Assembly: GCF_002075285.3 (NCBI RefSeq)
Contig: NZ_CP021983.2
Span: forward strand, 4,890,001 to 4,922,000
DNA: 32,000 nt
Origin: Halomicronema hongdechloris C2206
GTDB taxonomy: Bacteria > Cyanobacteriota > Cyanobacteriia > Phormidesmidales > Phormidesmidaceae
Direction: 5' to 3'
The position numbers and the translations under genes were made by a program. Within the stretch, counting starts at the first letter, position 1. Every line of letters begins with the position of its first letter. The notes beneath the pieces are model-generated. The model saw nothing but the letters and a program-made list of their open reading frames with translations. It did no database searches and was not told where the DNA came from. Of the stretch, positions 1 through 27,474 are shown in pieces.

Positions 1-227
1 GGTTGCGATCGCCGCGCTTGATAGAGCGCCTTCAGATTCTCAGGCGATGGTCGTTGACGTAGTCGCCCCAGAGGGGCTAGACCGGCCCTTAAGGGCCATC
101 GCGAGGCGGAAATTTCCCAGTTCTGCCGGTCGGCTTCAGTGAGGTTGCTTGGTCCCAGAATTGCAGGTGGAAAGGGTAAGGGATTACGGCGCAGATCCAA
201 AATTTTGAGTTGGGGTAACTCTTCGAG
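1..227 (-). pseudogene. Leucine-rich-repeat (LRR) protein, distal part; open to the window edge. It is separated from its 5' part by the IS66 insertion and by an in-frame TGA at 228-230.
   Basis: The minus frame reads LEELPQLKILDLRRNPLPFPPAILGPSNL..., an LRR unit. This frame is continuous with ORF 1877-2399 once the IS and one target-duplication copy are removed. Confidence 0.6.
48..98 (+). repeat. HIP1-splitting mini-hairpin element, 51-nt variant with an enlarged or nested first loop
   Basis: GCGA(44-47) | T GGTC [27 nt containing GCCCC-aga-GGGGC] GACC GGCCC TTAA GGGCC A | TCGC(99-102). Deleting 48-98 recreates GCGATCGC and keeps the LRR frame (51 = 17 codons). Confidence 0.7.
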
Positions 228-252
228 TCAATCAGGGCAAGTTTCAATTTGG

Positions 253-1876
253 GTAAACGTTCACGTGAGGCGTAAAGGAATGTGAAATCCGGCCATGGTC
301 ATCCTCTGGTAATTTAAGGAACTATGGATGAGCAATATCTCAATCAGCCAGAGGGAATTCCTTTAGAAGACTGGGAGCGCACTCCAGTCAGCGTCAAGCA
401 ACTGGTTGGCCAGTTGAGTCAGCGCCTGGTGCAGTTAGAGCATCAATACCAGGACATGCAAGCGCAGATGCAGTTGCTGCAAGAGCAACTCAACCGGAAC
501 TCAACCAACTCATCGCAACCCCCGTCATCCGACCCGCCGCAGGTCGAGCCCCGTCGTCGTCGCCGCAACCGAGGTCGAGGCCGAGGCGGTCACCCCGGCC
601 ATCCCGGCCACCATCGCCGGTTGTTTGCGCCTGAGGCGTGTGAGACTATCAGCGATCATTATCCCGAGACCTGCGCCAACTGTGGTGCGGCCTTGAGCGG
701 AGAAGACCCGAATCCCTATCGGCATCAAACCGTGGAGATGCCACCGGTCGTCCCTCAAGTGAAGGAATATCGCTTGCACCAACGGGTCTGTCCCCAGTGT
801 GGTCATCGGACTCGTGCCAAATTGCCAACCGGTGTTTCTAGTCACGTTTATGGGCCTCGAGTCGTCGCTACGGTCGGTGTGCTCAGTAGTCTGTATCGCC
901 CTCACAGCGCCTGGTGCAACAGGCCATGGCCGATTTATTCGGCCTCCCAATAGCCCTGGGCAGTGTCAATAATCTGCGCCAACAAGCCAGCGAGGCGGTG
1001 GCTGAACCGGTCGAGGTCGCCAAGACCTATGCTCGCCAACAACCGATTGTGGGCTCAGATGAAACCAGTTTTTCCCAAGGCAATGTGGATGGTCACAATC
1101 CTGAGGGACGTCAAGGTTGGCTCTGGGTGGTGGTGACGCCCTGGGTGAGCGTCTTTGAGGTGTTTCTCCATCACTCCCAACAGTCCGCCCAGGCCCTCTT
1201 AGGCGCAACGTTCGATGGCATTTTGATTTCAGATCGCCACAGCGCCTACACCTGGGTGGCCTTGGAGCGTCGGCAGCTCTGTTGGGCGCACTTGAAACGA
1301 GACTTCACCAAAATTGCCGAGCGCACAGGGGTGTCTCAAGGTTTAGGTGAGGCGCTGCTCGAGCAAGAACAGGCGTTATTTAAGCTCTGGTATCAGGTTC
1401 GAGATGGCACCTTAGCGCGTCCACAGTTTATCGAGGCGGTGAAGCCGATTCGCGAGCAGGTGAAGGCCCTGCTCACCGAAGGCGCTAGCTATGCCATCGG
1501 CCCTAAAGAGAAGACGCCGTTGGCGAAAACGGTGCGCACCTGTCAACGCTTATTAACGGTGGAACCGGCCCTCTGGCTCTTTATCACAGTGGAGGGGGTG
1601 GAACCGACTAATAATGATTCTGAGCGAGCGTTGCGACCAGCGGTCATCTGGAGAGGCATTAGTTTTGGCTCCCAGACGAAGGCCGGCAGTACCTTTGTGG
1701 CTCGAATGCTGACGGTGATAGCAACACTACGTTCTCAAAATCGCAGTATCCTCGAGTACATGACTGAGGCCTGTCGGGCAGCCCGTGAGGGGAAACCGGC
1801 TCCTTCATTATTGCCGCAAACTCCTAATACACAAGAGCGGGACTCACTTGCGGCTTAATACCCACTGGTCGATTAC
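253..1876 (+). mobile_element. IS66-family insertion sequence, single-transposase type, about 1.6 kb
   Basis: The termini are imperfect inverted repeats: GTAAACGTTCACGTG... at 253 and ...CCACTGGTCGATTAC ending at 1876 (reverse complement GTAATCGACCAGTGG). They are flanked by the 8-bp direct repeat CAATTTGG at 245-252 and 1877-1884. An 8-bp duplication is typical of IS66. Confidence 0.8.
324..1858 (+). pseudogene. IS66-family transposase (TnpC-like) split by a 1-nt frameshift near 898-913
   Basis: ORFs 324-953 and 914-1858 are two halves of one protein. The N-terminal half has a coiled coil and a CxxC...CPxCG zinc finger. The C-terminal half has DETSF, HSAYTW and CWAHLKRDF. The frames switch at ...LSSLYR / SQRLVQQAMADLFG around a CCC run. 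Confidence 0.8.
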
Positions 1877-2399
1877 CAATTTGGTTATTCTCAAGGTCTA
1901 ATTTTTCTAGCTCAATGAGCTGGCCGATGCACTCGGGTATCGTCGTGATTTGATTGCTATCGAGCCTAAGCTGAGTGAGATTGGCGATCTGGCCGAGGCT
2001 CTCGGGAATCTCAGATAAGTTAACGGCGATCGCGTTGAGTTTTGTGAGTGATTTGAGTTGAAAAATAATCTCTGGCAACTGTCCTAACGGGTTACCGCTT
2101 AGATTCAGCACTTTCAAATGCTCTAAAGCAGCCAATTCGGACGGTAAATTACTCAGGGCATTGGTTGTCAATTTTGGGGTAGGTTGCCCATCTGGAAATT
2201 CCCAAATACAAACGCTCAGGCGTTGGCGTAGCCGCTCCAAAGGAGCATCGCCAATGACATTCTCCAATTGGGGCGGCAGGCTGAAGAGCAAACCGTCGCT
2301 CAATAGGACTGTGGCAGGTGATTGATGGCTGTCGTTCGGTTGGGATTTTAGAAAACGACAAAATGGCAAGAGTTTGCGAAGTGGTAGGCCCACAGGCAT
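1877..2399 (-). pseudogene. LRR protein, N-terminal part, truncated by the IS66 insertion
   Basis: Repeated LxxLxLxxNxIxxIPExIGQL units end at ...LDLENNQI exactly at the target duplication. The ORF tail GNRPVGIKPQVSPALVY is read from IS sequence. Confidence 0.7.
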
Positions 2400-2441
2400 G
2401 AAGATAACATGAATAGCAGTGAGTTGGCTGTGCCCAGAAAG

Positions 2442-2804
2442 TCAGTCATCATCGTTGGGTTCATCCAAATGCTCTGAGGCTTCCCGATAAAGATTGAAAA
2501 TGTGCTTGTCTTTCAAGCAATAGTAAACATTGCGTCCTCGTTTGCGGTAGCTGACTAGCCGCATGGTGCGTAGCACTCGTAATTGATGGGAAACAGCGGA
2601 TTCAGTCATCTCAACCGCCTCAGCCAGTTCGCCTACCCGCAATTCCCGAGAGGCGAGTGCTGACAGAATACGCCAGCGATTCGGATCGCCCAGCACGCCA
2701 AAAAACTCGGCCATCCGCTGGGCCTTCTCAACACTCAGGATCCCACTGACGGGAGCATCGGCCCCGATCGCCTGCATCGCTTTTTCTTCAGAGTCCGACA
2801 TCAA
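2442..2804 (-). CDS. smtB: ArsR/SmtB-family zinc-sensing repressor
   Basis: Winged HTH ELAEAVEMTESAVSHQLRVLRTMRLVSYRKRGRNVYY. The C-terminal D-x-H...H-x-x-E pattern (LKDKH...EHLDE) matches the alpha5 metal site of SmtB. The gene is divergent from a metallothionein gene. Confidence 0.85.
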   Translation of the reverse strand: MMSDSEEKAMQAIGADAPVSGILSVEKAQRMAEFFGVLGDPNRWRILSALASRELRVGELAEAVEMTESAVSHQLRVLRTMRLVSYRKRGRNVYYCLKDKHIFNLYREASEHLDEPNDDD

Positions 2805-2887
2805 TCAGCCGATATCCAGCAGCAACAGCAGCACCTTTAGCGATCGCTCAACAACCCCAGCCAAAGCTAAAGATTTTATAGCTTTAA

Positions 2888-2941
2888 TACCTGAACAAGC
2901 ATTCAAGTGTTATGGTGATACCTGAACAAGTGTTCAAGTGT
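2888..2941. promoter_or_regulatory. smtB/smtA operator-promoter: two 23-nt direct repeats, each holding a TGAACA-type inverted repeat
   Basis: TACCTGAACAAGCATTCAAGTGT (2888-2910) and TACCTGAACAAGTGTTCAAGTGT (2919-2941). The second contains the perfect 6-2-6 palindrome TGAACA-AG-TGTTCA (2923-2936). This resembles the 12-2-12 operators of SmtB/CzrA-type repressors. Confidence 0.65.
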
Positions 2942-2972
2942 TTGTGTCATTCTATCGGTTTAGGATATTGCC

Positions 2973-3140
2973 ATGACGACTGTTACTCAAATGAAATGTG
3001 CCTGTGACTCTTGCCTGTGCATTGTGGACACCAGCAAGGCGGTTGAAAAAGAGGGTCACTACTATTGCAGCGAGGCCTGTGCGAATGGCCATCCTGAAGG
3101 ATCGGGGTGTGGTCATACGGGCTGTACGTGTCACAGCTAA
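2973..3140 (+). CDS. smtA: Bacterial metallothionein (SmtA/BmtA family), 55 aa
   Basis: Absent from the supplied ORF track because it is under 60 aa. ATG at 2973, TAA at 3138-3140. The translation is MTTVTQMKCACDSCLCIVDTSKAVEKEGHYYCSEACANGHPEGSGCGHTGCTCHS. It shows the SmtA Cys/His pattern KCAC..CLC...YYCSEAC..GH...GCGHTGC.CH. Confidence 0.9.
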   Translation: MTTVTQMKCACDSCLCIVDTSKAVEKEGHYYCSEACANGHPEGSGCGHTGCTCHS

Positions 3141-3183
3141 GTTTTTGGCAGGCAGCAGCGGTTGTGCTGGCTGTATAGGCTGC

Positions 3184-3795
3184 TTACGCGATCGCACGCC
3201 AGGATTGCGACAGGACTGTTCCGGCAGAACGGGCAAAAACGACGGTGAGCAGCAGACCCACTAACAAATCCGGTATGGGAGACTGGGTGAGCAACACCAG
3301 TCCCGCAGCGACCAAAACGGATGTGTTGGCAATGATGTCATTGCGGGAGCAGAGCCAAACAGAAGACATGTTCAAGTTGTCCTGGCGATGGCGGGTGAGC
3401 AGCAACAGGCAGATCAGGTTAGCCACCAGCGCCAGCAAGCCCACGAAGCCCATGATTTCTGCTGTGGGTGCAGCCTCGGTCACAAACTGGTAAACGGCAC
3501 GGGCGAAGACCGCGATCGCAAATCCAAACATAATCACACCCTTCAGCAAAGCCGCCCCAGCCTGAGCCTTAACGCTGCGGTGAATCACATAGAGGCTGGT
3601 GCCATAGACCAAAGCGTCTCCCAACATATCCAGGGAATCCCCTGTGAGGGAAAGGGAATCGGCTCGCAGCCCCGCCCCAAACTCGACGACAAACATCGCG
3701 AGATTAATCCCCAACACCGCCCAAAGCACCCGAGCCTGACGCTTTTTGAGTTGAGTCAGGGCTTCGGCCTTGTGCTGACAACAGTGATCGGCCAT
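3184..3795 (-). CDS. Cation-diffusion-facilitator-like metal transporter, membrane domain only
   Basis: It has several hydrophobic helices, the motifs DSLDMLGD and NDIIAN, and a Cys/His-rich N-terminus MADHCCQH. I chose the start at Met8 (3795) because the longer ORF start lies inside the upstream palindrome. Confidence 0.6.
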   Translation of the reverse strand: MADHCCQHKAEALTQLKKRQARVLWAVLGINLAMFVVEFGAGLRADSLSLTGDSLDMLGDALVYGTSLYVIHRSVKAQAGAALLKGVIMFGFAIAVFARAVYQFVTEAAPTAEIMGFVGLLALVANLICLLLLTRHRQDNLNMSSVWLCSRNDIIANTSVLVAAGLVLLTQSPIPDLLVGLLLTVVFARSAGTVLSQSWRAIA

Positions 3796-3810
3796 TGCTT
3801 TCACCCAAAC

Positions 3811-3830
3811 ATTCAAATGAACGTTTGAAT
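3811..3830. promoter_or_regulatory. Candidate ArsR/SmtB-type operator upstream of the CDF gene
   Basis: Inverted repeat ATTCAAA-tgaacg-TTTGAAT sits directly 5' of the CDF start. A further half-site, CATTTGAATG, lies at 3854-3863. Confidence 0.5.
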
Positions 3831-6321: not shown

Positions 6322-6687
6322 CTAATCCACCAACTGCTTCAGCGAATAACTGAGAATTTCGGATACCCGCCGATCGCGCAGTGAATAGTAGGCCAGCTTG
6401 CCATCATTGCGATATTTGAGAATCTTCAAGTCCCGCAGTTTGCGTAGGTGATGGGAGGCGGTCGCGACTTTAACGTCTAGCAGGGTGGCGATATCGCAGA
6501 CGCAGAGTTCCTGGTCATGGCTCAGGGCATAGAGAATTTTCAGTCGAGAGCGGTCAGCTAAGGCTCCAAAGATGATTTGGGCTATTTCCAGGGTGTCATC
6601 ACTGGGCAGCGTGTTTTGGACATGGTGAACTAACTCGGTGTTGAAGCACCGAATCTGGCAAATGTCCTTGGGCTTGGAGTTGCTCAC
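6322..6687 (-). CDS. ArsR-family metal sensor with alpha3N-type cysteines
   Basis: It has the HTH ...ATASHHLRKLRDLKILKYRNDGKLAYY and an ELCVCD motif in alpha3. N-terminal Cys10 and Cys14 (CQIRC) are present. It lacks a C-terminal His/Asp alpha5 site. Confidence 0.75.
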   Translation of the reverse strand: MSNSKPKDICQIRCFNTELVHHVQNTLPSDDTLEIAQIIFGALADRSRLKILYALSHDQELCVCDIATLLDVKVATASHHLRKLRDLKILKYRNDGKLAYYSLRDRRVSEILSYSLKQLVD

Positions 6688-6798
6688 GAGTGGATCAGGG
6701 ATTGTATGGGCTCATTATGGCCTATGGGCTGTGGTTCAGGGTGGGTGGATGGTTAGGCGAACGATAGGGTGGCTTTGGTCAGGGCAGGTACGATGCGA

Positions 6799-6824
6799 TG
6801 GCCGAAGGCCGGTCCTTTGGACCA
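6799..6824 (+). repeat. HIP1-splitting mini-hairpin element, 26 nt
   Basis: GCGA | T GGCC GAA GGCC GGTCC TTT GGACC A | TCGC. Removing it recreates GCGATCGC and extends the oxidoreductase frame to ...LACDRIVPALTKATLSFA*. Confidence 0.8.
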
Positions 6825-7821
6825 TCGCAGGCTAGTTTCCCTCCAAACAAGTTTCGGGCTACCGGGCCGATGTGCAACGCCGCCCACGGTCCCATCAAAA
6901 ACAGTTCGCAGCCCGGCCAGCGCAGGTGTTCATCCAAAACGGGCAAGCCGTTGATAGTTGCGATGGGATATTGCGCTAACACGTCCGTCAATAAGGGATG
7001 AGATCGGATATCCAGGGTCGTTCCCGTGGCGAGCCAGATGCGGTGAATCGGTTGATGGGTGATGCAATCATGCACCGAGTGGTGTCGCAGCACACCTTCC
7101 AGGCGTCCCCTTGCCACTGGGCATCCGCGACCTGACAGTGCTCGTAAAAGGTGATGTGCCCTTGCCGCTGGAGTTGCCGCAGGCGCGTCATCATCGCGGG
7201 CGTGAGCGAGCCGCCATTGCGGGCTTGCTGTACCATCTGCCAGCGGGCCTGCATATCCGCTTCCTCGTGGAAACCTTTCAGATACTTCGGCCCCAGCCAC
7301 CCCGGTTCGGCATCGAACAGCTTTTCCTGAAACGTGCGTCGCGCCATCATCACCACTTTCGCGCCGCGCTTCACAGCCCCGACCGCCAGGTGCCCGCTGG
7401 TCAAGCCACTGCCCACAATGAGCACCGTTTCACCTTTGAGTGAATTCAAGGCAGGCAGCCGGATTTGGTTGGCATGGCACAACCTTTCCGGCGGATAGGT
7501 GGCACTGATTTGCTTGCCCCAATCGGGTAGGTAGGGCTGCCCACCTCCCATGGCTAGCACGACCCGCCGCGCCAGCACCGTATTCCCTGTCGATAAAGTC
7601 AACCGAAATCGGAAAGGTCTTTTCTGCAAGGTCTCCAATCGTGTAACTGCTGCGGTCACCACATGATTTTGCAACTGCCAACGCTGCACCACCGTGTCGC
7701 AGAACTCTTGAAACAGGCGCGTGCCGGGACGGTCGTAGGGCGGGTGCAGTTTGTCATAGCGCCCTTCGGCAAAGGTGCGCAGAGCGTGGGCATTGGGGTC
7801 CGGATGATGGACGGCGGGCGA

Positions 7822-7847
7822 TGGTCGAAGACCGGTCCTTTGGACCA
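7822..7847 (+). repeat. HIP1-splitting mini-hairpin element, 26 nt
   Basis: GCGA | T GGTC GAA GACC GGTCC TTT GGACC A | TCGC. Removing it joins ...QQQFAAQEIAELR to SPAVHHPDPNAHAL... in one frame. Confidence 0.85.
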
Positions 7848-8069
7848 TCGCAGTTCGGCAATTTCTTGTGCCGCAAACTGTTGCTGCCACTGGGTCATCC
7901 AGGCACCACTGGGGTCAAATACCTGGATGCGATCGCACAGTTTCGCCTTCTTTTGCAACACATGGGTGACCAGGGTGAGGGCCTGCGGTCCGGCCCAATG
8001 ACGGCAATATCGGTCTGCGACTGAGCCATAACGGTTGACTGAGGTTGCTCAAATAGGATGCAAGCAATA

Positions 8070-8852: not shown

Positions 8853-9667
8853 ATATCGCCGTTCTGTCCTGCATCCACGGCAACCTGGAAGCGTTGGAAG
8901 CCGTCCTGCGGGAGATTGACCAGCAGGACGTTGACCAGATCTACTGTCTGGGCGATCTAGTGGGTTATGGCCCTTACCCTAACGAAGTCGTCGCCCGCAT
9001 TCGCGCACTCAACATTCCCACCTGTCAGGGCTGTTGGGATGAAGACATCGTTGACGGGCTAAATGCCTGCGACTGTAGCTATCCTTCCCTGCTGGCCGAA
9101 ACCCGAGGTCACCGAGCCCACGAGTGGACGAATCGCGAAGTCACCCTCGAAACCCGCACCTATTTGGCCAGTCTGCCCCTGATCCTGCAGCAGGAGAATC
9201 TGTGCTTCGTCCACGGCAGTCCCCACAGCCAGCACGAATATTTGCTGCCCGACACCAGTGCTTTCGTAGCTCTAGAACGAGTCCTCTTCACTGGAGCTGA
9301 TACCCTCTTCTGCGGTCACACCCACATTCCCTACGTGCGTCATCTGGAAAACAGTCACCTCACCCTCAAAGTTGCTTCCCCATCTACCCAGTCACCCACC
9401 TACTCTTCTAACACTCCATCCTCTCTCAAGCACATCATCAACGCCGGTTCCGTCGGAGAACCCCGCCATGGACGCCCCAACGCCACCTACGTCATCTACA
9501 ACACGGATGCCCAACAGGTAAAACTCCGCGAAGTCGAATACGACTTCACCAAAACTTGTGCCGCTATTCTCGAAAAAGGACTCCCTGCTATCTTCGCCTG
9601 GCGACTTTCAAAGGGGTTGGAATACGCCGAAAAAGCCGATGATCCAACTCACGTGTGTGAACGATAG
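8849..9667 (+). CDS. Metallophosphoesterase-family protein (YfcE/MJ0936-like) with Cys at usual metal-ligand positions
   Basis: Motifs LSCIHGN (usually SDIHGN), CLGDLVGYGP, QGCWDED (usually GN[HY]D), VHGSP, GHTH and INAGSVG. Its start overlaps the upstream stop (ATGA). Confidence 0.7.
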   Translation: MNIAVLSCIHGNLEALEAVLREIDQQDVDQIYCLGDLVGYGPYPNEVVARIRALNIPTCQGCWDEDIVDGLNACDCSYPSLLAETRGHRAHEWTNREVTLETRTYLASLPLILQQENLCFVHGSPHSQHEYLLPDTSAFVALERVLFTGADTLFCGHTHIPYVRHLENSHLTLKVASPSTQSPTYSSNTPSSLKHIINAGSVGEPRHGRPNATYVIYNTDAQQVKLREVEYDFTKTCAAILEKGLPAIFAWRLSKGLEYAEKADDPTHVCER

Positions 9668-9669
9668 CG

Positions 9670-12448: not shown

Positions 12449-12497
12449 GGGAATTGGGGAATGGGGAATGGGGAATGGGGAATGGGGAATGGGGTTA
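12448..12497. repeat. Tandem heptamer array (GGGGAAT), six full units plus one partial unit; STRR-like
   Basis: Read directly in the znuC-znuB spacer: GGGGAAT t GGGGAAT x5 GGGGTTA. Confidence 0.9.
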
Positions 12498-13356: not shown

Positions 13357-13648
13357 ATGCCCCAAATTCTTGATGCCCTGCCAACCCAACAGCCAAACAG
13401 AATCCTGTGCAGCTATCACAATCCGTCAGCTGACGTACAAATTGCTCAGATTTCCAACATTCCCCATTGGTATTTCGACCGCGTTATCTTTCCTGGCGAT
13501 TCGCTCCTCTTCGAGGCTGTTGCAGAGGCAACCCTGGAAATCTATAGCGGTGATTGGCATCACGACACGACTGGCCGATCATATTCCTTGCGATCGCTTG
13601 CAGATGGCAACACCGATTTCATCCACTGTTTTGAGGTCGATGAAATGA
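13357..13648 (+). pseudogene. DUF1830-family protein with a 1-nt frameshift near 13550
   Basis: Frame 1 gives ILCSYHNPSADVQIAQISNIPHWYFDRVIFPGDSLLFEA...LEIYSG. Frame 2 then gives IGITTRLADHIPCDRLQMATPISSTVLRSMK*, the expected DUF1830 C-terminus, which ends at 13648. Confidence 0.6.
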
Positions 13649-14655
13649 CTGCTTCATTATCAGAACTGATGCCCAAACGGGGAATGCCAGTGACCCTGAT
13701 TACCGGATTTTTGGGGAGCGGCAAGACCACGCTGCTGAACCACATTTTGACTAACCGCCAAGAGTTGAAGGTAGCGGTGCTGGTGAATGAATTTGGTGAC
13801 ATCAACATCGATAGCCAGCTGTTGGCGTCGGTGGAAGAAAACATGGTGGAGCTGAGCAACGGCTGCATCTGCTGCACGATTAACGACAGCCTGGTGGATG
13901 CGGTGTATGCCGTGCTGGAACGGGAAGAGCGGATGGACTATCTGGTGGTAGAAACCACGGGACTGGCCGACCCGCTACCCATCATGGTGACGTTTCTGAG
14001 TACGGAGCTGAAAGCCTTCACTCACCTGGATTCTGTCATTACTGTGGTAGATGCGGAAGCCTTTACAGAAGATCACTTCAGCAGTGATGCGGCACTCAGT
14101 CAGTTAATCTACGGCGACATTATCTTGCTGAACAAGGCCGATTTAGTACCAGAGTCTAAGCTAACCCAGTTAGAAGCCTACATTCACAGCATCAAAGAGC
14201 AGGCACGATTCCTGCGGTGTTCGCTGACGGCAGAAGCCGATGGGCTGCCCCTTTCTGCCTTGCTAGATGTGGGTTTGGCAGAGCCCCCGGTGTTGAGTCT
14301 GGACGTAGAGGAATGTCAGACATTCAACAGCACATCCCCCCACCTTACTCAGGATGGCTTTGTCTCGGTGCCGTTTAAGAGCGATCGCCCCTTCAACCTG
14401 ACTAGGTTCGAGCATTTCTTGATGGCCCAGATGCCCGTCGATGTGTTCCGGGCCAAAGGCATTCTCTGGTTCGAGGGCGAGGAAGAGCGTTTTATCTTTC
14501 AGCTCAGCGGCAAACGGTGCAGCATTACCCCCGAACCCTGGACCACCCCACCCCAAAATCAACTCGTGTTCATTGGTCGTCAGTTGAACCTCCTGCAACT
14601 GCACCAACACCTCACCAATTGTTTGGCCGGTAGTCGAGTCTCCCTACTGTCCTAG
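13645..14655 (+). CDS. COG0523 (CobW/ZigA/YeiR-like) metal-chaperone GTPase
   Basis: Motifs GFLGSGKTT, NGCICCT, ETTGLADP, NKAD and a CobW_C domain. The ATG at 13645 overlaps the DUF1830 stop (ATGA). Confidence 0.8.
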   Translation: MTASLSELMPKRGMPVTLITGFLGSGKTTLLNHILTNRQELKVAVLVNEFGDINIDSQLLASVEENMVELSNGCICCTINDSLVDAVYAVLEREERMDYLVVETTGLADPLPIMVTFLSTELKAFTHLDSVITVVDAEAFTEDHFSSDAALSQLIYGDIILLNKADLVPESKLTQLEAYIHSIKEQARFLRCSLTAEADGLPLSALLDVGLAEPPVLSLDVEECQTFNSTSPHLTQDGFVSVPFKSDRPFNLTRFEHFLMAQMPVDVFRAKGILWFEGEEERFIFQLSGKRCSITPEPWTTPPQNQLVFIGRQLNLLQLHQHLTNCLAGSRVSLLS

Positions 14656-15438: not shown

Positions 15439-15530
15439 CGGAGTGATGGAGTGATGGGGTGATGGAATAACTCCCCAACTCCCTTACTCCCTTACTCCCC
15501 GACTCCCCACCCATCCACCCATCCACCCTC
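15439..15530. repeat. Block of short tandem octamer repeats in the folE-COG0523 spacer
   Basis: GGAGTGAT x3, then CTCCC(C/T)NA x4-5, then CACCCATC x2-3, read directly. The C-rich motif CCCACCCATCCAC recurs before cysS at about 16700-16715. Confidence 0.8.
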
Positions 15531-15539
15531 ACTCTTCCC

Positions 15540-16613
15540 ATGCTAAAAACCTCCGACACCCACGACACCCGCCTCCCCGTCACCATCATCACGGGCTTTC
15601 TCGGCAGTGGCAAAACTACGCTGCTGAATCACATCCTCCAAAACTTCGATGCCTTTCGCGTTGCGGTGCTAGTGAATGAATTTGGTGACATCAATATCGA
15701 CAGTCAGTTTCTGGTCACCGTGGAGCAGGACATGGTGGAGCTGACCAACGGCTGCATCTGCTGCACCATCAACGATGACCTGATGCAAGCGGTATATCGA
15801 GTGCTGGAGAAACGGGACAGAATTGACTACCTTGTAGTCGAAACCACTGGCGTTGCCGACCCCCTACCCATTACCCTCACCTTCCTCGGCACCGAGCTGC
15901 GGGACATGACTCGACTCGACTCCATCCTGACGGTAATTGACGCCGAAACCTTTGAACCCGACTTATTCAACAGCCAGGCGGCGATGAGTCAGGTGGCCTA
16001 TGGCGATATTCTGCTGCTGAATAAAACCGACTTGGTCTCACCAGATCGTCTTGAGGCGGTGGAATCAGGGATTCGCACCTTCCGAGAAGATGTCAAGATT
16101 CTCCACGCTCAGCATGGCCGGGTACCCCTGCCGCTGATCATCGATGTGAAGGTGGGCGATCGCGGTCTGTATCAAGCCGTGGCCCAAGCTGATGCCGAGA
16201 AAGCGGCCCATGATCATGACCATCACTCCGAACACGAGGCTCACGACCACGGGCATCACGGGCATCATCACGACCACGATCATCCCCACGAACATCATCA
16301 CCATCACTCCGACCACCTGGATAACGATGGCTTTGTCTCGATGGCGTTCCGCTCCGATCAGCCCTTTGCCCTCAAGAAGTTTCAGCAGTTCCTTGACTAT
16401 CACTTGCCACCAGAACTGTTCCGCATGAAGGGGATTCTCTGGTTCAAAGAAAGCCCTGCCCGTCACTTTTTCCAGCTCACGGGTAAGCGGTTTCAGCTTG
16501 AAGACTCGGAATGGCCAGGATCACCCGGCACTCAACTCGTCTGCATTGGCCGAAATTTGGATCTCAAGGTGATGGAAGAAAAGTTGATGAACTGTGTTGC
16601 AGATGAGGATTAG
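15540..16613 (+). CDS. COG0523 metal-chaperone GTPase with a His-rich insert
   Basis: Motifs GFLGSGKTT and NGCICCT. The insert HDHDHHSEHEAHDHGHHGHHHDHDHPHEHHHHHSDH lies between the G domain and CobW_C. Confidence 0.85.
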   Translation: MLKTSDTHDTRLPVTIITGFLGSGKTTLLNHILQNFDAFRVAVLVNEFGDINIDSQFLVTVEQDMVELTNGCICCTINDDLMQAVYRVLEKRDRIDYLVVETTGVADPLPITLTFLGTELRDMTRLDSILTVIDAETFEPDLFNSQAAMSQVAYGDILLLNKTDLVSPDRLEAVESGIRTFREDVKILHAQHGRVPLPLIIDVKVGDRGLYQAVAQADAEKAAHDHDHHSEHEAHDHGHHGHHHDHDHPHEHHHHHSDHLDNDGFVSMAFRSDQPFALKKFQQFLDYHLPPELFRMKGILWFKESPARHFFQLTGKRFQLEDSEWPGSPGTQLVCIGRNLDLKVMEEKLMNCVADED

Positions 16614-16730
16614 GTTTTAGGTTCTGGGTTTCAGGTTTCAGGTTTTGGCTGGTATCAAGAAACCCGTTGCGGCATCTAGCACCCGATCCCCATCTACCCG
16701 CCCACCCATCCACTCGCCCACCTATTTCCC

Positions 16731-23211: not shown

Positions 23212-24192
23212 ATGAAAAAGGTTGTATACACAAAGTATGGTTCCCCAGATGTCATTGAACTCATAGAGACCGAGAAACCGTTACCTAAGGATAATCAAGT
23301 TTTGCTAAAGGTTCATGCGGCATCTGTCAACATGTTGGATTGGTATCATCTAACAGGTCCTCCGGTGATCCGTTTAACAAACGGTACACTTTCCAAACCC
23401 AAAGAGACTTCACTTGGACTAGACGTGGCTGGTCAGGTTGAAGCTGTAGGCGATCGCGTAACCCAGTTGCAGCCAGGGGATGAAGTCTTTGGAATAGCCA
23501 AAGGTTCATTTGCAGACTATGCGTGCGCTGATGAACATGAGTTGGTACAGAAACCGGCCAACGTATCGTTTGAGGCTGCGGCTGCTACCCCTGTAGCAGC
23601 CTTGACAGCGCTACAAGGACTTCACAATAAAGGCCGAATCCAGCCAGGTCAAAAGGTTCTCATCAATGGAGCTTCTGGTGGCGTAGGGACGTTCGCTGTG
23701 CAGATAGCCAAATCCTTCGAGACCATCGTAACGGCTGTCTGTAGCACCCAAAACCTGGATATCGCTCGCTCAATGGGGGCAAACTACGCTATTGATTATA
23801 CGCGAGAAGATTTTACGACGAATGGACGGCAATTTGACTTGATCTTTGCTGTCAACGGCTACCACTCGATTTTTGATTATCGCAGGGCATTGAGTCCTAC
23901 GGGCATCTATGTCTCAGCTGGAGGGAAGCTGGCTCAAATTATTCAGGCAGCGCTTGTGGGACCCATACTATCGAAAGTTGGACGTCAGCAACTCTCATTT
24001 ATGGGGATAGCGCAAGTGAAGCAAAAGGACCTGTCTATTATTGGAGAGCTGCTTGAATCTGGCAAAATCATACCCGTAATTGATAGATGTTATCCGTTAA
24101 GAGCAACATCACATGCCCTTCAATATCTTGGGGCGGGGCATGCCAAAGGAAAAGTCATCATCACTATGAGACCTGATGATAACAGCTCGTAA
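23212..24192 (+). CDS. MDR-superfamily NAD(P)H quinone oxidoreductase / alcohol dehydrogenase-like protein
   Basis: It has a GroES-like N-domain and the Rossmann motif INGASGGVGTFAVQIAK. The C-terminus is GHAKGKVII. Confidence 0.8.
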   Translation: MKKVVYTKYGSPDVIELIETEKPLPKDNQVLLKVHAASVNMLDWYHLTGPPVIRLTNGTLSKPKETSLGLDVAGQVEAVGDRVTQLQPGDEVFGIAKGSFADYACADEHELVQKPANVSFEAAAATPVAALTALQGLHNKGRIQPGQKVLINGASGGVGTFAVQIAKSFETIVTAVCSTQNLDIARSMGANYAIDYTREDFTTNGRQFDLIFAVNGYHSIFDYRRALSPTGIYVSAGGKLAQIIQAALVGPILSKVGRQQLSFMGIAQVKQKDLSIIGELLESGKIIPVIDRCYPLRATSHALQYLGAGHAKGKVIITMRPDDNSS

Positions 24193-24212
24193 GGCGCGAA
24201 TTCTCTCTAGCT

Positions 24213-24298
24213 GCCTAACACTACGCCGGAGCGGACGGATGACAAAATCTGAGTATTGACACGAAAACATTGACCGCCGTTCAGCTTCACCGTTAGGC
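24213..24298 (+). mobile_element. Integron-type attC recombination site, 86 nt
   Basis: GCCTAACACTACGCCGGAGCGGACGG ... GACCGCCGTTCAGCTTCACCGTTAGGC. The core sites are exact, and the arms pair imperfectly with bulges. Confidence 0.7.
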
Positions 24299-24532
24299 GA
24301 TTCTATTCTGGAGATGAATGAAGCTATTTTTTGCCAAGTCCTTGACAAGTTTCTCTATTTAGGCTATCAAGCTTATTTCCTAAGCATCCAAAAGCCTTAG
24401 AGCACTTACATAATTGCTCTATCAATGACCCTGACGACCATTTGCGAGAATGGGCAAGAAGACAACTTTTATAATGAGAACAGGTGAATTGAGCTTCAGC
24501 TTACATCGGTAGATAAAGTAAGAAGAGGTTTT

Positions 24533-24787
24533 ATGAGTATCAGTCTAACCCCCGACCAGGAACGCTTCATCCAAACCAAGCTTCAAGCTGGCAAATATCG
24601 CTCTGCCGAAGAAGTCTTAGAAATCGCCCTGCGGTTACTGGATGAGTACGATCGCTCTGAAGCTGAATGGGTTGAAGAAGTTCGAGCCAAGATTGACGCG
24701 GCGATTGAAGCTTCTGAAAATACCGCCCCGATCGATGGTGAAACATTTGTTAACGGCATCCTGGAACGATTCCAGCAGGCAAAGTAA
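24533..24787 (+). CDS. ParD/RHH-type type II antitoxin
   Basis: MSISLTPDQERFIQTKLQAGKYRSAEEVLEIALRLL is the ParD-like antitoxin signature. A ParE-like ORF follows 2 nt later. Confidence 0.75.
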   Translation: MSISLTPDQERFIQTKLQAGKYRSAEEVLEIALRLLDEYDRSEAEWVEEVRAKIDAAIEASENTAPIDGETFVNGILERFQQAK

Positions 24788-24789
24788 CC

Positions 24790-24948
24790 ATGAGTCGCTA
24801 TGTCATCAACGTTCTTGCCAGTCAAGACCTGAATGAAATTGCTGACTATTTTGCTGGAAACAATATTGAAGCCGGGGAGCGGTTCTTTCAGGCATTTAAC
24901 CGTAAATGCCAGCAGCTTGTTGCCTTCCCCAATAGCGGCAAGAGCTAA
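24790..24948 (+). pseudogene. ParE/RelE-family toxin, 3'-truncated (52 codons)
   Basis: MSRYVINVLASQDLNEIADYFAGNNIEAGERFFQAFNRKCQQLVAFPNSGKS* stops right after the conserved FP..G motif, where roughly the C-terminal half of a ParE toxin should follow. Not in the ORF track because it is under 60 aa. Confidence 0.65.
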
Positions 24949-24991
24949 AAACTGCAAGCCACACACTGGTGCCAGATTTGATTTTTAAGGC

Positions 24992-25950
24992 TCACTCTGG
25001 CTTCTGAATCAGACTCTCCCATTGCCGCTGTTTCACTTTGGGGTCAATGCCCAGCAAACGCACATAGTCGCCGGGATGATCTGCCAAGAACTGCTCCACC
25101 TGGGTCAGCACCTGGGCCTCGTGGTTACTCGCAATGGTCGGGCCATTCTGCCAGGAACCTGCCTTAAATCGCCGGATATCGGCGAATTCCAGGCCAATGT
25201 GGTGCCCCTGACGGAGTTTTTGCCGGATTCGTCCACAATTTCTGCCCGCAAAGGGTGAGCTACCTGACCATTGTGATGCATAGACTGGAAGCCATTACTG
25301 GAGATAGGATTCTGCAAAGACCTGAGGCAGGCGATATCGTCAGCACAGCGATATCCGGCTCGCAGGGCCTGGTTGATTTCGACCACGTGATGAGAGAAGG
25401 TGCGATGGTCAAAGACCGGCCTCCGGCCATCGCTATCGTTAGCATCCGGTAACCGATCGGCAGCTTGCTGGGTCGTAATCACTGCTCCTGAGGGCACATA
25501 CTTACCGGGGGGAATCTCCACATCTTGAATCAGGGCATGCATCATCACAATGCACCCGTGACCCACCTGGGCATTAAACACCGTCGAGCGAAAGCCAATA
25601 AAACACTCATTCCCAACGTAAGCGGGGCCATGAATCAACGCCATGTGGGTAATGCAGGTGTCGTGGCCAATCCACACAGAGTAGGCTTGCTGATCATCCC
25701 CTAAGACTCGTCCCTGCTCTAACCCATGAATGACCACCCCATCCTGAATGTTGGTATTCACCCCGATATAAAAGGGAGTCCCTTCATCCGCTCGAATGGA
25801 GGTATTGGGGGCGATAATCACATTTTCGCCCAGCTGCACATCACCAATCAGACTGCACTGGGGATGAACATAGGCAGAAGCTGCAATTGTAGGCTGATCT
25901 AGGTCATGGTCCCAGGGAGTGGGTGGGGCGGGTTGACGACGGAGCGGCAT
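24992..25950 (-). pseudogene. Gamma-carbonic-anhydrase / CcmM-like protein with one RbcS-like (SSLD) module; 1-nt frameshift near 25227-25230
   Basis: ORF 25105-25950 holds a left-handed beta-helix gamma-CA domain with the His ligands retained ([13 protein letters not shown]). A second minus frame from about 25228 to 24992 gives [78 protein letters not shown]. That is a typical CcmM small-subunit-like domain. Confidence 0.75.
25406..25429 (+). repeat. HIP1-splitting mini-hairpin element, 24 nt, in frame
   Basis: GCGA | T GGTC AAA GACC GGCC TCC GGCC A | TCGC. It adds GRRPVFDH within ...LPDANDSD[..][18 protein letters not shown]. Confidence 0.8.
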
Positions 25951-25965
25951 GGTACCTTCCTTGAT

Positions 25966-26589
25966 TCAAAGTTGAGTGGGATTGGGAGCACCCCCGTAGA
26001 CGGTGGCGGGGTCAAAGGTCTTGGTCTTTTCCGTAAACGTGAGCGCAATGGGCCGATTAACCTCAACCCCCTCGTCGCCAGGGGAAATCTGGCGGTAAAA
26101 GCAAGAGCGATAGCCCACATGGCAACTGGCTCCTGACCCAAATACCTTGACCTTCATCAACAGGCAATCCTGGTCATCATCAATCAGCAATTGCTGCACG
26201 GTCTGCACCAGGCCGCTGGTCGCACCTTTATGCCAGAGCTGCTGACGGCTGCGACTGTAGTAGTGGGCTTCGCCCGTTTCGAGGGTTTTCAGCAATGCTA
26301 CTTCATTCATGTAGGCGTGCATCAGCACCTCGCCGGTTGCAGCATCCGTGGTGACGACGGGGATGAGCCCATGGGCGTCAAACTTAGGGGCCAGAAGCAT
26401 TCCTTCTTCGACAGCTTCAACCGAGGTACGGGCGGCAAAGGGTGATGACATAGGGCAGAGAGTAACAATGACAAGCGCTGGTCTAGGGCAAATAGGTGGC
26501 CTCAGCTGGGCCTGAGAGCGTCGACTGGTGGTTGATTCGGGAACTGCGGCAGCCTCTTTCTCGGTTTGCTCTAAATTTGCAGACATCAA
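25966..26589 (-). CDS. hisI: Monofunctional phosphoribosyl-AMP cyclohydrolase
   Basis: Motifs [52 protein letters not shown] and [10 protein letters not shown]. The N-terminal 46 aa may not be translated; an alternative ATG lies at 26451. Confidence 0.8.
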
Positions 26590-26635
26590 CTTTACCGAGA
26601 CTTTATATCTGTCTCAGTATATATCCCATAAGGTG

Positions 26636-26652
26636 AGAATGATAATCATTCT
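26636..26652. promoter_or_regulatory. Zur-type palindrome, perfect 8-1-8, in the hisI / PEP-CTERM divergent promoter
   Basis: AGAATGAT-A-ATCATTCT, read directly. Confidence 0.8.
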
Positions 26653-26673
26653 GGTCGAATTGAGGTTTTCTCT

Positions 26674-27474
26674 ATGCTCAGTTTTGGCAAGTCAATCATT
26701 GCGATCGCCCACAAAAAGGGGGGCGCGATGGTCCTCCGGACCGGCTCCGCCATCGCAGCCGGCACAACCCTGAGTCTACTTACCATTAATCCTGCCCAAG
26801 CAGCTACCTTTGAGATTTCATGGACGGGACAAATTCTGGGCTACAGTGCCGAGGGTCGTTTCAGCTACGACGACACCCAAACCTTTGAAGATGGAATTGT
26901 GCGAGGTGACGATTTAGACGCGTTTGACATTGCCTTCTTCGACCCGCAGGGCAATCTGATCCAAGAATTTGAGGATAACCACCTTACCTATCCAGAGTTC
27001 AACTTTAATTTCGACACCCAAACGGGTGAAATTCTGCAAGATGGCTTTTTCGATGAGCCGAATGGCATTAACGTTGGAGAATTTACGGTTCTGTTCGATG
27101 ACGCGGGGGACACTATTGGGGCAACGGGACTGAACTTCTGGTCGGCGGCTCCCGTTGAAGATGGAGAACCTGTCCCCCATGTTCACCTAACCGATTTTGG
27201 CAATAACTTTCCTGACCTGCCGATAGGCTTCGTCCCCCCCGAGTTTGTCGAGGAGTCCCCCAATTTGTCGGTACGCGTTCGTCCCCATCTCGATGTCGCT
27301 TTCTTTACCCGCACACAGGCACAGCTTTTGGATGATCCAGATGCAGGTGATCAGCTCGGCCAGAGGATGGTTGCAACCCCGGTACCTGAACCGGGTGCTT
27401 TAGTCGGACTGGGTGCGATCGCATTGCTAGCCGCTCGTTTGCGGAGAAAATCTGGTGCGATTGACTCGATATGA
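26674..27474 (+). CDS. PEP-CTERM-anchored secreted protein
   Basis: It has an N-terminal signal peptide. The C-terminus is VPEPGALVGLGAIALLAARLRRK, that is, a PEP motif, a TM helix and a basic tail. Confidence 0.8.
   Translation: MLSFGKSIIAIAHKKGGAMVLRTGSAIAAGTTLSLLTINPAQAATFEISWTGQILGYSAEGRFSYDDTQTFEDGIVRGDDLDAFDIAFFDPQGNLIQEFEDNHLTYPEFNFNFDTQTGEILQDGFFDEPNGINVGEFTVLFDDAGDTIGATGLNFWSAAPVEDGEPVPHVHLTDFGNNFPDLPIGFVPPEFVEESPNLSVRVRPHLDVAFFTRTQAQLLDDPDAGDQLGQRMVATPVPEPGALVGLGAIALLAARLRRKSGAIDSI
26729..26752 (-). repeat. HIP1-splitting mini-hairpin element, 24 nt, inverted orientation, in frame
   Basis: GCGA | T GGTCC TCC GGACC GGC TCC GCC A | TCGC. It adds MVLRTGSA inside the signal peptide (..HKKGGA[..]IAAGTTLSLL). 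Confidence 0.75.

What the first reader, a model, noticed from the sequence alone, without database searches (positions are those of the whole stretch)
48..26752. A family of 24-51 nt double-hairpin mini-insertions, each splitting a HIP1 octamer (GCGA|TCGC) inside an ORF
There are five copies, at 48-98, 6799-6824, 7822-7847, 25406-25429 and 26729-26752 (the last one inverted). All share the layout T-[GGYC loop GRCC]-[GG(Y)CC loop GG(R)CC]-A. Each is flanked by exactly GCGA on one side and TCGC on the other, so deleting it recreates a perfect HIP1 site GCGATCGC.

The stems differ between copies only by paired changes: GGTC/GACC versus GGCC/GGCC, and GGTCC/GGACC versus GGCCC/GGGCC versus GGCC/GGCC. 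The loops vary freely (GAA, AAA, TTT, TCC, TTAA). That is the signature of selection on a hairpin structure. All five copies lie inside reading frames.

Very small mobile repeats have been described for heterocyst-forming cyanobacteria (the small dispersed repeats). I cannot tell from here whether this HIP1-targeting double hairpin belongs to a described family.
Basis: seen in the sequence. Interest (0 to 1): 0.8.

Follow-up and report, generated by a model that had tools for sequence, protein, structure and literature searches.

The report
Tiny mobile double-hairpins splitting HIP1 sites
The five short sequences are real copies of a 24-51 base mobile DNA element that inserts exactly into the middle of the cyanobacterial palindrome GCGATCGC; this kind of element was described in 2008 as "SDR5" in Nostoc relatives, and here it turns up in a different cyanobacterial lineage.

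Summary
All five copies sit at the stated coordinates. The flank pattern occurs 5 times against 0.01 expected. A covariance model built mostly from other genomes finds exactly these five copies in the window.

They are true insertions. Orthologous genes in related cyanobacteria carry an uninterrupted GCGATCGC at the sites of copies 3, 4 and 5, and a gap of exactly 26 nt at copy 2. At copy 1 a relative has the simple 27-nt element, without the extra 24 nt nested in one hairpin loop.

At the copy-5 site, different species are empty, occupied, or occupied in the opposite orientation. Identical copies, loops included, lie at unrelated loci within one genome. Stems show compensatory changes (0 of 500 shuffles reach the observed score).

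Added lengths are mostly 24 or 27 nt, and such copies are often in open frames. The two 26-nt copies lie in a frame-broken oxidoreductase gene.

The window comes from Halomicronema hongdechloris. The family is also present in Leptolyngbya, Nodosilinea, Acaryochloris, Thermosynechococcaceae, Spirulina and some Nostocales.

It matches what citing papers report for SDR5 (Elhai 2008), which was said to be absent outside Nostocaceae. It is a known kind with a wider host range. The enzyme that moves it is unknown.

The parts
44..102 (+). Copy c1 with its HIP1 halves. GCGAT 44-48; hairpin 1 stem GGTC 49-52 / GACC 80-83; hairpin 2 GGCCC TTAA GGGCC 84-97; ATCGC 98-102. The added DNA is 48-98 (51 nt = 17 codons).
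   Evidence: The orthologous site in metagenome loci L129/L130 has the simple 27-nt element.
53..79 (+). Nested unit in the loop of c1 hairpin 1: GTT [GAC GTA GTC][GCCCC AGA GGGGC] TA. It is a second double-hairpin repeat ('family B'). Net addition is 24 nt.
   Evidence: It is absent from L129/L130 at the same site. The same 51-nt composite occurs in an unrelated gene in L094, with the compensatory change GAC/GTC to GGC/GCC. The unit is dispersed in 35 metagenome contigs, usually inside the loop of a host hairpin.
1..200 (-). Host of c1: a short ORF that runs off the left edge of the window. It is identical to an 83-aa hypothetical protein of Halomicronema hongdechloris, looks like a leucine-rich-repeat remnant, and sits next to an IS66 transposase at 324-1858.
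6795..6828 (+). Copy c2 with its HIP1 halves. The added DNA is 6799-6824 (26 nt).
   Evidence: L041 has a gap of exactly 26 nt here, and both genomes encode C-D-R at the site.
7818..7851 (+). Copy c3 with its HIP1 halves. The added DNA is 7822-7847 (26 nt). It is 94% identical to c2 and differs from it by one compensatory pair in hairpin 1.
   Evidence: L041 has an empty perfect GCGATCGC at this site.
6753..8029 (-). Host of c2 and c3: a FAD/NAD(P)-dependent oxidoreductase gene (Lys/Orn monooxygenase-like). It is broken by the two 26-nt insertions and by two 1-nt deletions near 7995 and 7085. The orthologue in L041 is an intact 408-aa ORF.
25402..25433 (+). Copy c4 with its HIP1 halves. The added DNA is 25406-25429 (24 nt). 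It is read on the minus strand as [11 protein letters not shown].
24992..25950 (-). Host of c4: a ccmM-like gene (gamma-carbonic-anhydrase domain plus one RbcS-like domain). It has a 1-nt deletion near 25230, which may be an assembly error.
26725..26756 (+). Copy c5 with its HIP1 halves. The added DNA is 26729-26752 (24 nt), with the hairpins in the opposite order. It is read as A-MVLRTGSA-IA.
26674..27474 (+). Host of c5: a PEP-CTERM sorting-domain protein. The element lies in the N-terminal signal-peptide region.

Best explanation
**What it is.** These are copies of a very small, non-autonomous mobile DNA element of the 'small dispersed repeat' kind, most probably the SDR5 family or a close sister of it.

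**Anatomy.** A copy is a 22-25 nt core made of two abutting G+C-rich hairpins. Each hairpin starts with GG and ends with CC, has a 3-6 bp stem and a 3-4 nt loop. The core sits in the exact centre of the palindrome GCGATCGC. The dinucleotide AT is present on both sides, so removing the core plus one AT restores HIP1. The two HIP1 halves can pair with each other, so on a single strand the whole unit is a Y-shaped three-way junction.

**Shown here.**
- Copies are insertions relative to orthologues.
- The target is essentially always HIP1.
- Specific variants, loops included, are copied to unrelated loci.
- The same site can be empty, filled, or filled in the inverse orientation.
- Composite (nested) copies spread as units.
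- Stems covary.
- Lengths divisible by 3 predominate and are often found inside genes. Other lengths are mostly outside long open frames, break the gene, or are compensated by a nearby 1-nt change.

**Inferred mechanism.** A trans-acting host or transposon enzyme recognises the folded hairpins on single-stranded DNA. It inserts a copy at the apex of a palindrome, either the centre of HIP1 or the loop of another hairpin. Two routes fit the junction equally well: a 2-nt staggered cut (GCG^AT^CGC) that duplicates AT, or an IS200/IS605-type insertion 3' of GCGAT with no duplication. Selection on the host then removes most frame-breaking copies. The elements are best seen as selfish passengers that genes tolerate as 8-, 9- or 17-residue loops. 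They do not look like host functions.
For: **Empty sites**
- c3: L041 reads GGCGATCGCAG with a gap of exactly 26 nt.
- c2: L041 has a 26-nt gap, and the encoded C-D-R is conserved.
- c4: 19 of the 20 closest homologues aligned lack exactly 8 residues. The DNA of L122-L124 and L126-L128 shows a perfect HIP1 at the site.
- c5: L124 reads GGTGCGATCGCTG.

**Mobility**
- At the c5 site, L128 carries the identical element. L126 and L127 carry it reverse-complemented.
- The c4 site is also filled in Leptothoe spongobia (L121). That organism is no closer to the window than the relatives with an empty site.
- A second copy is present in L069 and absent from L122 at one orthologous locus.
- In Leptolyngbya PCC 6406, two different variants each occur three times with identical sequence, loops included, in unrelated flanks.
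- The 51-nt composite of c1 recurs in an unrelated ThrRS-like ORF in L094. The un-nested 27-nt form sits at the orthologous site of c1.

**Target specificity**
- In 789 kb of HIP1-rich loci, 87 of 90 perfect adjacent double hairpins are HIP1-split. One of the other three is a copy with mutated flanks.

**Structure**
- In the 24-nt class, pair 19-25 is CG 22, GC 6, UA 3, with none unpaired. The covariation score is 0.182 against 0.060 in shuffles (0 of 500 reach it).
- In the 27-nt class, the corresponding pair is CG 18, UA 11 (0 of 500).

**Selection filter**
- Added lengths are 24 nt (50 copies), 25 (4), 26 (13), 27 (36) and 28 (2).
- Of copies whose length is a multiple of 3, 51 of 93 lie in frames open for at least 50 codons on both sides. 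Copies of other lengths rarely do.
- One 26-nt copy in L041 is rescued by an adjacent +1 nt.

**Palindrome-apex idea**
- The nested family-B unit usually lies between short inverted repeats.
Against: - No enzyme has been identified. In about 0.9 Mb of loci there is no longer element that has these hairpins as its ends, and there are no copies in viral contigs.
- The published SDR5 consensus could not be read because the paper is not held, so identity with SDR5 rests on descriptions in citing papers. One of those papers gives 21 nt for SDR5, against 24-27 nt added here.
- Energy minimisation of single copies prefers one extended hairpin to the Y shape. Only covariation favours the two-hairpin fold.
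- The loci were chosen by a pattern that required HIP1 flanks. This biases the target-specificity count.
- The data cannot separate repeated insertion at a site from precise loss.
- The three 1-nt frameshifts in host genes may be homopolymer errors of a 454/PacBio assembly. The 'dead gene' reading for the host of c2 and c3 therefore rests mainly on the 26-nt insertions themselves.
Confidence: 0.82

Rival explanations
1. The elements move through an RNA intermediate. A small structured transcript would be reverse-transcribed, or reverse-spliced, into HIP1 sites, rather than moving by a DNA cut-or-copy reaction.
For: The unit folds stably as RNA, at -14 to -31 kcal/mol with z-scores of -1.9 to -4.5. 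G-U-compatible changes occur in the stems (UG cells; GGC/GTC in L127). Copies lie in transcribed genes in both orientations.
Against: No Rfam family matches. No reverse transcriptase or intron is seen nearby. Both orientations relative to transcription are common, so many copies would be transcribed only as the complement. The 24-nt size and the 2-nt AT ambiguity have no known retro-element precedent.
Confidence: 0.08
2. The elements are not mobile. They arise locally at HIP1 sites through a repair or replication side-reaction at the palindrome, such as snap-back or template-switch synthesis, or gene conversion between HIP1 sites.
For: The association with HIP1 is absolute. The units are palindromic. 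The loops are variable.
Against: Identical variants, including 6-7 loop bases, occur at unrelated loci and in different genomes. The inserted stems are not complementary to the flanks, as snap-back synthesis would require. Composite 51-nt units recur. The same stems recur across cyanobacterial orders.
Confidence: 0.04
3. The elements are kept by the host for a function. For example, they might switch individual HIP1 sites off for methylation, cutting or recombination, or act as structured signals in DNA or mRNA.
For: Insertion destroys the CGATCG and GATC methylation sites of HIP1 and adds GGCC-type sites (read directly from the sequence; the enzymes are described). The c5 insertion is retained in many orthologues. 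At the c5 and c4 sites the element is 100% and 96% identical between genomes whose flanks have diverged by 10-20%.
Against: Positions are patchy among close relatives. Both orientations and all three reading frames occur. Copies disrupt genes. Decayed copies exist.
Confidence: 0.05
4. The extra bases are ordinary conserved coding sequence, and the resemblance to split HIP1 sites is chance.
For: The c5 residues (MVLRTGSA) are shared by many homologues.
Against: The pattern occurs 5 times against 0.01 expected. Empty HIP1 sites exist in orthologues for c3, c4 and c5. The same DNA occurs in non-homologous genes.
Confidence: 0.01

Closest known systems
SDR5 (small dispersed repeat 5) of Nostoc punctiforme and relatives; Elhai, Kato, Cousins, Lindblad and Costa, Genome Res 2008;18:1484
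   Same: [quoted passage not shown] Because AT is present on both sides, this is the same junction as seen here. From my memory of the abstract: SDR families are 21-27 nt; SDR4, SDR5 and SDR6 share a secondary structure supported by compensatory mutations; nested insertions occur in some SDR families; mobility was inferred from presence/absence between close genomes. Copies with the same layout are present in Nostocales (Brunnivagina, Plectonema radiosum NIES-515, a Nostocaceae MAG, a Calothrix PCC 6303 plasmid).
   Different: The host is Halomicronema hongdechloris, and many other non-heterocystous cyanobacteria carry the family. A later paper states that no SDR-like repeat was found outside Nostocaceae. 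Hairpin 2 here is GGCC, GGCCC or GGTCC rather than the GGGC TTT GCCC typical of the Nostocales copies. Size classes of 24, 26, 27 and 51 nt are seen here, while one citing paper gives 21 nt. The published consensus could not be compared.
REP / REPIN elements mobilised by RAYT (Y1 HUH) transposases, and IS200/IS605-derived palindrome-associated elements
   Same: Short hairpin-forming repeats that are non-autonomous and presumably recognised as folded single-stranded DNA. IS200/IS605 elements insert 3' of a fixed 4-5 nt target without duplicating it and excise seamlessly. That would fit both GCGAT|[GG...CCAT]|CGC and the perfect HIP1 found at empty sites.
   Different: REPs are extragenic and are usually paired as REPINs of about 100 nt. 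No RAYT or TnpA was identified here. These elements are 24-27 nt and are often inside genes. The REPIN paper lists the origin of SDRs as an open problem.
Rickettsia palindromic elements (RPE)
   Same: Palindromic selfish repeats that are inserted in-frame into protein-coding genes and tolerated as extra peptide segments (from my own knowledge of Ogata et al. 2000).
   Different: RPEs are about 100-150 bp, have no HIP1-like fixed target, and occur in an unrelated host group.
MITEs with a 2-bp target duplication (Tc1/IS630-derived elements, Correia/NEMIS elements)
   Same: Non-autonomous elements with terminal inverted symmetry and a dinucleotide repeated on both sides.
   Different: Those elements duplicate TA, are at least 100 bp long, and carry recognisable terminal inverted repeats of a parent transposon. 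Here the repeated dinucleotide is AT within an 8-bp palindrome, and the element is only two hairpins.

Membership tests
SDR5 (Elhai et al. 2008) | Found within HIP1, inserted between nucleotides 3 and 4 of GCGATCGC | tested here: met
   All five window copies read GCG-AT-[core]-AT-CGC. 87 of 90 perfect double hairpins in 789 kb of HIP1-rich loci are HIP1-split. Empty orthologous sites are perfect HIP1. Definition taken.
SDR5 (Elhai et al. 2008) | Very small size (SDR families 21-27 nt) | tested here: met
   Added DNA is 24, 26 or 27 nt, with a 22-25 nt core, plus a 51-nt nested composite. One secondary source gives 21 nt for SDR5, so the match is approximate.
SDR5 (Elhai et al. 2008) | Predicted hairpin secondary structure supported by compensatory changes (recalled from the abstract; not re-read) | tested here: met
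   98.4% and 98.6% of cells are paired, with CG/GC/UA alternation and 0 of 500 shuffles reaching the score. The alternative fold is not supported.
SDR5 (Elhai et al. 2008) | Mobile: present or absent between related genomes | tested here: met
SDR5 (Elhai et al. 2008) | Restricted to heterocyst-forming cyanobacteria (Nostocaceae) | tested here: not met
   The window is Halomicronema hongdechloris. Copies occur in Leptolyngbya PCC 6406, Nodosilinea PCC 7104, Acaryochloris marina, Thermosynechococcaceae and Spirulina. This is a reported distribution rather than a structural definition, so the result extends the family rather than excluding membership.
SDR5 (Elhai et al. 2008) | Sequence match to the published SDR5 consensus | not testable with these tools
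   PMC2527708 is not held. No held paper contains the Nostocales-type sequence.
REP/REPIN-RAYT | Extragenic location and association with a RAYT (Y1 transposase) gene | tested here: not met
   Copies lie inside genes. The only transposase identified among the 10 window ORFs scanned is IS66. A whole-genome search for RAYT genes was not possible.
IS200/IS605-derived palindromic elements | Hairpins at both ends, a fixed short target 5' of the element, no target duplication, seamless excision, strand-biased orientation | tested here: inconclusive
   The layout and the perfect empty sites are compatible. No parent element was found. In PCC 6406, 9 of 10 27-nt copies share one orientation, but the sample is small and the replication origin is unknown.
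Rfam RNA families | Match to any curated structured-RNA model | tested here: not met
   No hits at gathering threshold in the window.

The most novel reading that the evidence does not exclude
Double-hairpin modules of 22-25 nt (family A in HIP1, family B in other hairpin loops) could be the smallest mobile DNAs known. An as-yet unidentified enzyme would insert them, and also precisely excise or flip them, at the apex of palindromes. The hyper-abundant HIP1 palindrome would then be the landing pad of an active recombination system, and in-frame copies would act as reversible 8-9 residue peptide insertions. A more extreme variant is that the copies whose length is not a multiple of 3, sitting in otherwise intact genes, are removed or bypassed at the RNA or translation level.
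Probability: 0.12. Interest if true: 0.85.

Novelty: new member of a known kind. Interest (0 to 1): 0.45.

Why it matters
HIP1 is one of the most over-represented words in any bacterial genome, and its function has been debated for 30 years. An element that targets its exact centre is a natural probe of what happens at HIP1: cutting, extrusion as a hairpin, or recombination.

The family turns out to be widespread outside Nostocaceae. It shows three states at a single orthologous site (empty, forward, inverted). It also nests inside hairpin loops. Together these observations narrow the possible mechanisms to ones that act at palindrome centres. They also give concrete sites where insertion, excision or inversion could be looked for experimentally.

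There is a practical consequence too. These 24-27 nt insertions add 8-9 residues to conserved proteins such as CcmM-like proteins and threonyl-tRNA synthetase, and the 25-26 nt forms create frameshifts. Genome annotators and people making protein alignments of cyanobacteria should be aware of this.

Tried and rejected
- **Sixth pattern hit (29325-29367).** It has no proper hairpins, scores E = 0.07 with the model, and lies in a long ORF. I rejected it as a member.
- **Single extended hairpin.** Energy minimisation predicts this fold for single copies. I rejected it as the conserved fold because it shows no covariation (487 of 500 shuffles reach its score).
- **Autonomous parent element.** I looked for HIP1 half plus hairpin 1 and hairpin 2 plus HIP1 half separated by other sequence. 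Only decayed or nested copies turned up.
- **Viral contigs.** No matches.
- **Rfam.** No matches.
- **Reading Elhai 2008.** The paper is not held. A full-text search for the Nostocales-type sequence found no paper, and no held paper describes HIP1-splitting hairpins in other cyanobacteria.
- **First attempt to identify the source.** An exact protein look-up failed, and the look-up of P0237 also failed. Identification came from the name and contig length attached to P0237.
- **Compensation of c3 by the 1-nt deletions.** The 1-nt deletions around c3 do give -1 +26 -1 = +24, but they are about 900 nt apart, so the stretch between them would be out of frame. I rejected this idea.
- **Reading-frame or orientation preference of coding copies.** All classes occur, so I found no clear preference.

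Full report
**1. The observation**

The five sequences are present exactly as described. Each has GCGA on one side and TCGC on the other. The DNA between them begins with T and ends with A, and consists of two abutting G+C-rich hairpins. The added lengths are 51 nt (c1), 26 nt (c2 and c3) and 24 nt (c4 and c5).

The flank pattern GCGATGG...CCATCGC occurs 5 times in the window against 0.01 expected from shuffles. Four of these hits are c2-c5. c1 is too long for that pattern. The fifth hit (29325-29367) has no real hairpins and I do not count it as a member.

HIP1 itself occurs 29 times against 0.59 expected. So about 15% of HIP1-type sites in this window (5 of 34) are split.

I built a covariance model from 31 distinct 24-nt copies, 30 of them from other genomes. 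Run over the whole window without filters, it returns c1-c5 at E <= 0.005. The rejected 29325 hit follows at E = 0.07, and after that only weak matches, mostly bare HIP1 sites. c2 and c3 are 94% identical and differ by one compensatory pair.

**2. Source and gene context**

The host ORF of c1 is identical to an 83-aa hypothetical protein of Halomicronema hongdechloris. That protein lies on a contig of 5,577,845 bp, which is the published genome size. G+C content is about 55%. The organism is therefore not a heterocyst-former.

- **c1** lies in-frame (17 codons) in a short leucine-rich-repeat-like gene remnant next to an IS66 transposase.
- **c2 and c3** lie in a FAD-dependent oxidoreductase gene on the minus strand (6753-8029). 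The reading frame changes at each 26-nt insertion and at two 1-nt deletions. The orthologue in locus L041 is an intact 408-aa ORF.
- **c4** lies in-frame in a ccmM-like gene and encodes [11 protein letters not shown].
- **c5** lies in-frame in the signal-peptide region of a PEP-CTERM protein and encodes A-MVLRTGSA-IA.

The genome was assembled from 454, PacBio and Solexa reads. The three 1-nt deletions I saw in host genes all fit homopolymer-length changes (read from the alignments) and may be assembly errors. I do not lean on them.

**3. The copies are insertions**

- **c3.** L041, a Leptolyngbyaceae MAG that is 74-77% identical over the region, reads GGCGATCGCAG with a gap of exactly 26 nt.
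- **c2.** L041 has a 26-nt gap. Its sequence there is TGC GAC AGA, where the window without the element would read TGC GAT CGC. Both encode C-D-R.
- **c4.** Of the 20 closest homologues I aligned, 19 lack exactly the 8 residues. DNA from six relatives shows a perfect HIP1 at the site.
- **c5.** The closest relative at this locus, a metagenome contig (L124), reads GGTGCGATCGCTG.
- **c1.** The orthologous site in a metagenome (L129, L130) carries a simple 27-nt element, [GGCCC TTAA GGGCC][GGTC TTC GACC]. The window has 24 further nucleotides inside the GGTC hairpin loop. c1 is therefore an element within an element.

**4. The copies belong to a mobile family**

Most hits are cyanobacteria: Leptolyngbya PCC 6406 (many copies), Nodosilinea PCC 7104, Acaryochloris marina, Thermosynechococcaceae, Spirulina, Phormidesmidales, Petrachloros, and a few Nostocales. 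About 20 hits in G+C-rich non-cyanobacteria lack the second hairpin and serve as a chance control. A BLAST search of plasmids adds a Calothrix PCC 6303 plasmid (an exact Nostocales-type copy inside parB), Acaryochloris plasmids and Nodularia.

Within PCC 6406, two different variants each occur three times with identical sequence, loops included, in unrelated flanks. This shows templated copying of particular variants.

At the c5 site there are three states. The site is empty in L124 and L125. It is filled with the identical element in Leptolyngbya Heron Island J (L128). It is filled with the reverse complement of that element in Nodosilinea LEGE 07088 and Leptolyngbya PCC 7375.

The c4 site is filled only in the window and in Leptothoe spongobia. 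The two copies differ by one loop base. Leptothoe is no closer to the window than the relatives with an empty site. The explanation is either repeated insertion at the same HIP1 or precise loss. The data cannot separate the two.

The 51-nt composite of c1 recurs, 88% identical, inside a ThrRS-like ORF in L094. It carries a compensatory change in the nested hairpin, GAC/GTC to GGC/GCC.

Target specificity is nearly absolute. In 789 kb of HIP1-rich loci, 87 of 90 perfect adjacent double hairpins are HIP1-split, and one of the three exceptions is a copy with mutated flanks. The loci were selected for HIP1-flanked copies, which inflates this figure to some degree.

**5. Structure**

In the 24-nt class (31 distinct sequences), the third pair of hairpin 2 is CG in 22, GC in 6 and UA in 3, with none unpaired. 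Overall 98.4% of cells are paired against 92.2% in shuffles. The covariation score is 0.182 against 0.060, and 0 of 500 shuffles reach it. The 27-nt class gives CG 18 and UA 11 at the corresponding pair, again with 0 of 500.

The search pattern fixed the outer GG/CC of each stem but left these inner positions free.

Energy minimisation of single copies, as DNA or RNA, prefers one extended hairpin in which the outer arms of the two hairpins pair with each other. That fold shows no covariation (487 of 500 shuffles reach its score). So the conserved architecture is two separate hairpins, closed by the HIP1 halves GCGAT/ATCGC.

**6. Filtering by the host**

Among 114 double-hairpin copies, the added lengths are 24 nt (50 copies), 25 (4), 26 (13), 27 (36) and 28 (2). 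Of the copies whose length is a multiple of 3, 51 of 93 lie in frames open for at least 50 codons on both sides.

Copies of other lengths are mostly outside long open frames. A few break a gene: the window oxidoreductase, and an ABC transporter in L070. One 26-nt copy in L041 is put back in frame by an extra base next to it.

Coding copies occur in both orientations and in all three HIP1 reading frames.

This is the pattern expected from indiscriminate insertion into HIP1 followed by purifying selection. It does not require any removal at the RNA level.

**7. How it probably works**

Shown: the elements are site-specific, templated and orientation-free insertions of a double hairpin at the centre of HIP1, with AT on both sides.

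Inferred: a trans-acting enzyme recognises the folded unit and inserts it at the apex of a palindrome.

Two observations point to 'palindrome apex' as the real target. First, the HIP1 halves form the closing stem of the Y-shaped structure. Second, the unit nested in c1 (family B: GTT[GRC N3 GYC][GCCCC N3 GGGGC]TA) is itself dispersed. It occurs in 35 metagenome contigs and twice in PCC 6406. In most of these places it lies between short inverted repeats, that is, in the loop of some host hairpin.

The junction can be read in two ways. It may be a 2-bp duplication of AT after a staggered cut, GCG^AT^CGC. This is the position given for SDR5. Or it may be an IS200/IS605-style insertion 3' of GCGAT without duplication, which would also explain seamless empty sites.

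I found no parent element, no copies in viral contigs and no Rfam match. The enzyme remains unknown. I give the general mobile-element reading about 0.8, and the single-stranded-DNA, palindrome-apex mechanism roughly 0.3-0.4.

**8. Comparison with what is known**

The closest described entity is SDR5 of Elhai et al. 2008. [quoted passage not shown] One of them states that no SDR-like repeat was found outside Nostocaceae. From memory of the abstract, SDR families are 21-27 nt, SDR4, SDR5 and SDR6 share a structure supported by compensatory mutations, and nested insertions occur.

All the structural features I could test are met. The host range is not. The published consensus could not be compared because the paper is not held. 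Copies in Nostocales share hairpin 1 and the HIP1 junction, and have GGGC TTT GCCC as hairpin 2. The simplest reading is one family with lineage-specific variants.

REP/REPIN-RAYT elements, IS200/IS605-derived palindromic elements, TA-duplicating MITEs and Rickettsia palindromic elements are functional analogies only.

**9. Verdict**

The thing is real, mobile and structurally constrained. But it is a known kind, which lowers the novelty.

What is new relative to the literature I could reach:
- the wide distribution outside Nostocaceae;
- the 26-, 27- and 51-nt variants;
- direct evidence for three states at one orthologous site;
- the indication that these modules target palindrome centres in general.

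Interest is moderate.

Noticed in passing
window 53-79; L064:6430, L091:4658, L094:175; L131-L165: A second dispersed double-hairpin repeat, GTT[GRC N3 GYC][GCCCC N3 GGGGC]TA. It occurs inside c1 and in 35 metagenome contigs. It usually sits in the loop of a host hairpin (flanks such as ggtc..gacc, ctcc..ggag, gtgc..gcac, cccc..gggg). This suggests that such modules insert at palindrome centres in general.
   Followed up: partly
window ~7995, ~7085 (minus-strand oxidoreductase gene) and ~25230 (ccmM-like gene): Three 1-nt deletions relative to orthologues shift the reading frame. All are compatible with homopolymer-length errors, and the genome was assembled from 454, PacBio and Solexa reads. 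They may be assembly artefacts rather than real pseudogene lesions.
   Followed up: partly
window 324-1858: An IS66-family transposase is split into two overlapping ORFs (DUF6444 + zf-IS66, then DDE_Tnp_IS66). It sits immediately next to the truncated leucine-rich-repeat-like remnant that hosts c1. The IS probably truncated that gene.
   Followed up: no
window 12449-12497; 9377-9405, 15496-15532, 16687-16727: Heptamer tandem repeats (GGGGAAT; CCCAYCC-type) lie between genes. They resemble the short tandemly repeated sequences known from filamentous cyanobacteria.
   Followed up: no
Leptolyngbya PCC 6406 scaffold 1 (loci L029, L042, L044, L045, L088, L091, L096, L106, L110): Nine of the ten 27-nt copies sampled have the same orientation on the scaffold. 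The 24-nt copies are mixed. The sample is small and the replication origin is unknown. An orientation bias would be expected for single-strand transposition.
   Followed up: partly
L041:3833-3866 (orthologue of window ~8730, C-terminus of a CobW-like gene): A 26-nt copy is kept in frame by one extra base just upstream, giving a net 27 nt (9 residues). The window has a near-HIP1 (GCAATCGC) at this position and no element.
   Followed up: yes
L069 (minus strand) around 6996 versus L122:6947: A decayed copy is followed by a HIP1-like site. That site is empty in L122 and filled by a second copy in L069, which gives an apparent tandem pair of elements.
   Followed up: partly
window 13357-14655 and 15540-16613: Two paralogous cobW-type GTPase genes (149-nt and 59-nt repeats at 76-81% identity) lie in what looks like a metal-homeostasis cluster, with an ArsR-family regulator at 6322-6687.
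   Followed up: no
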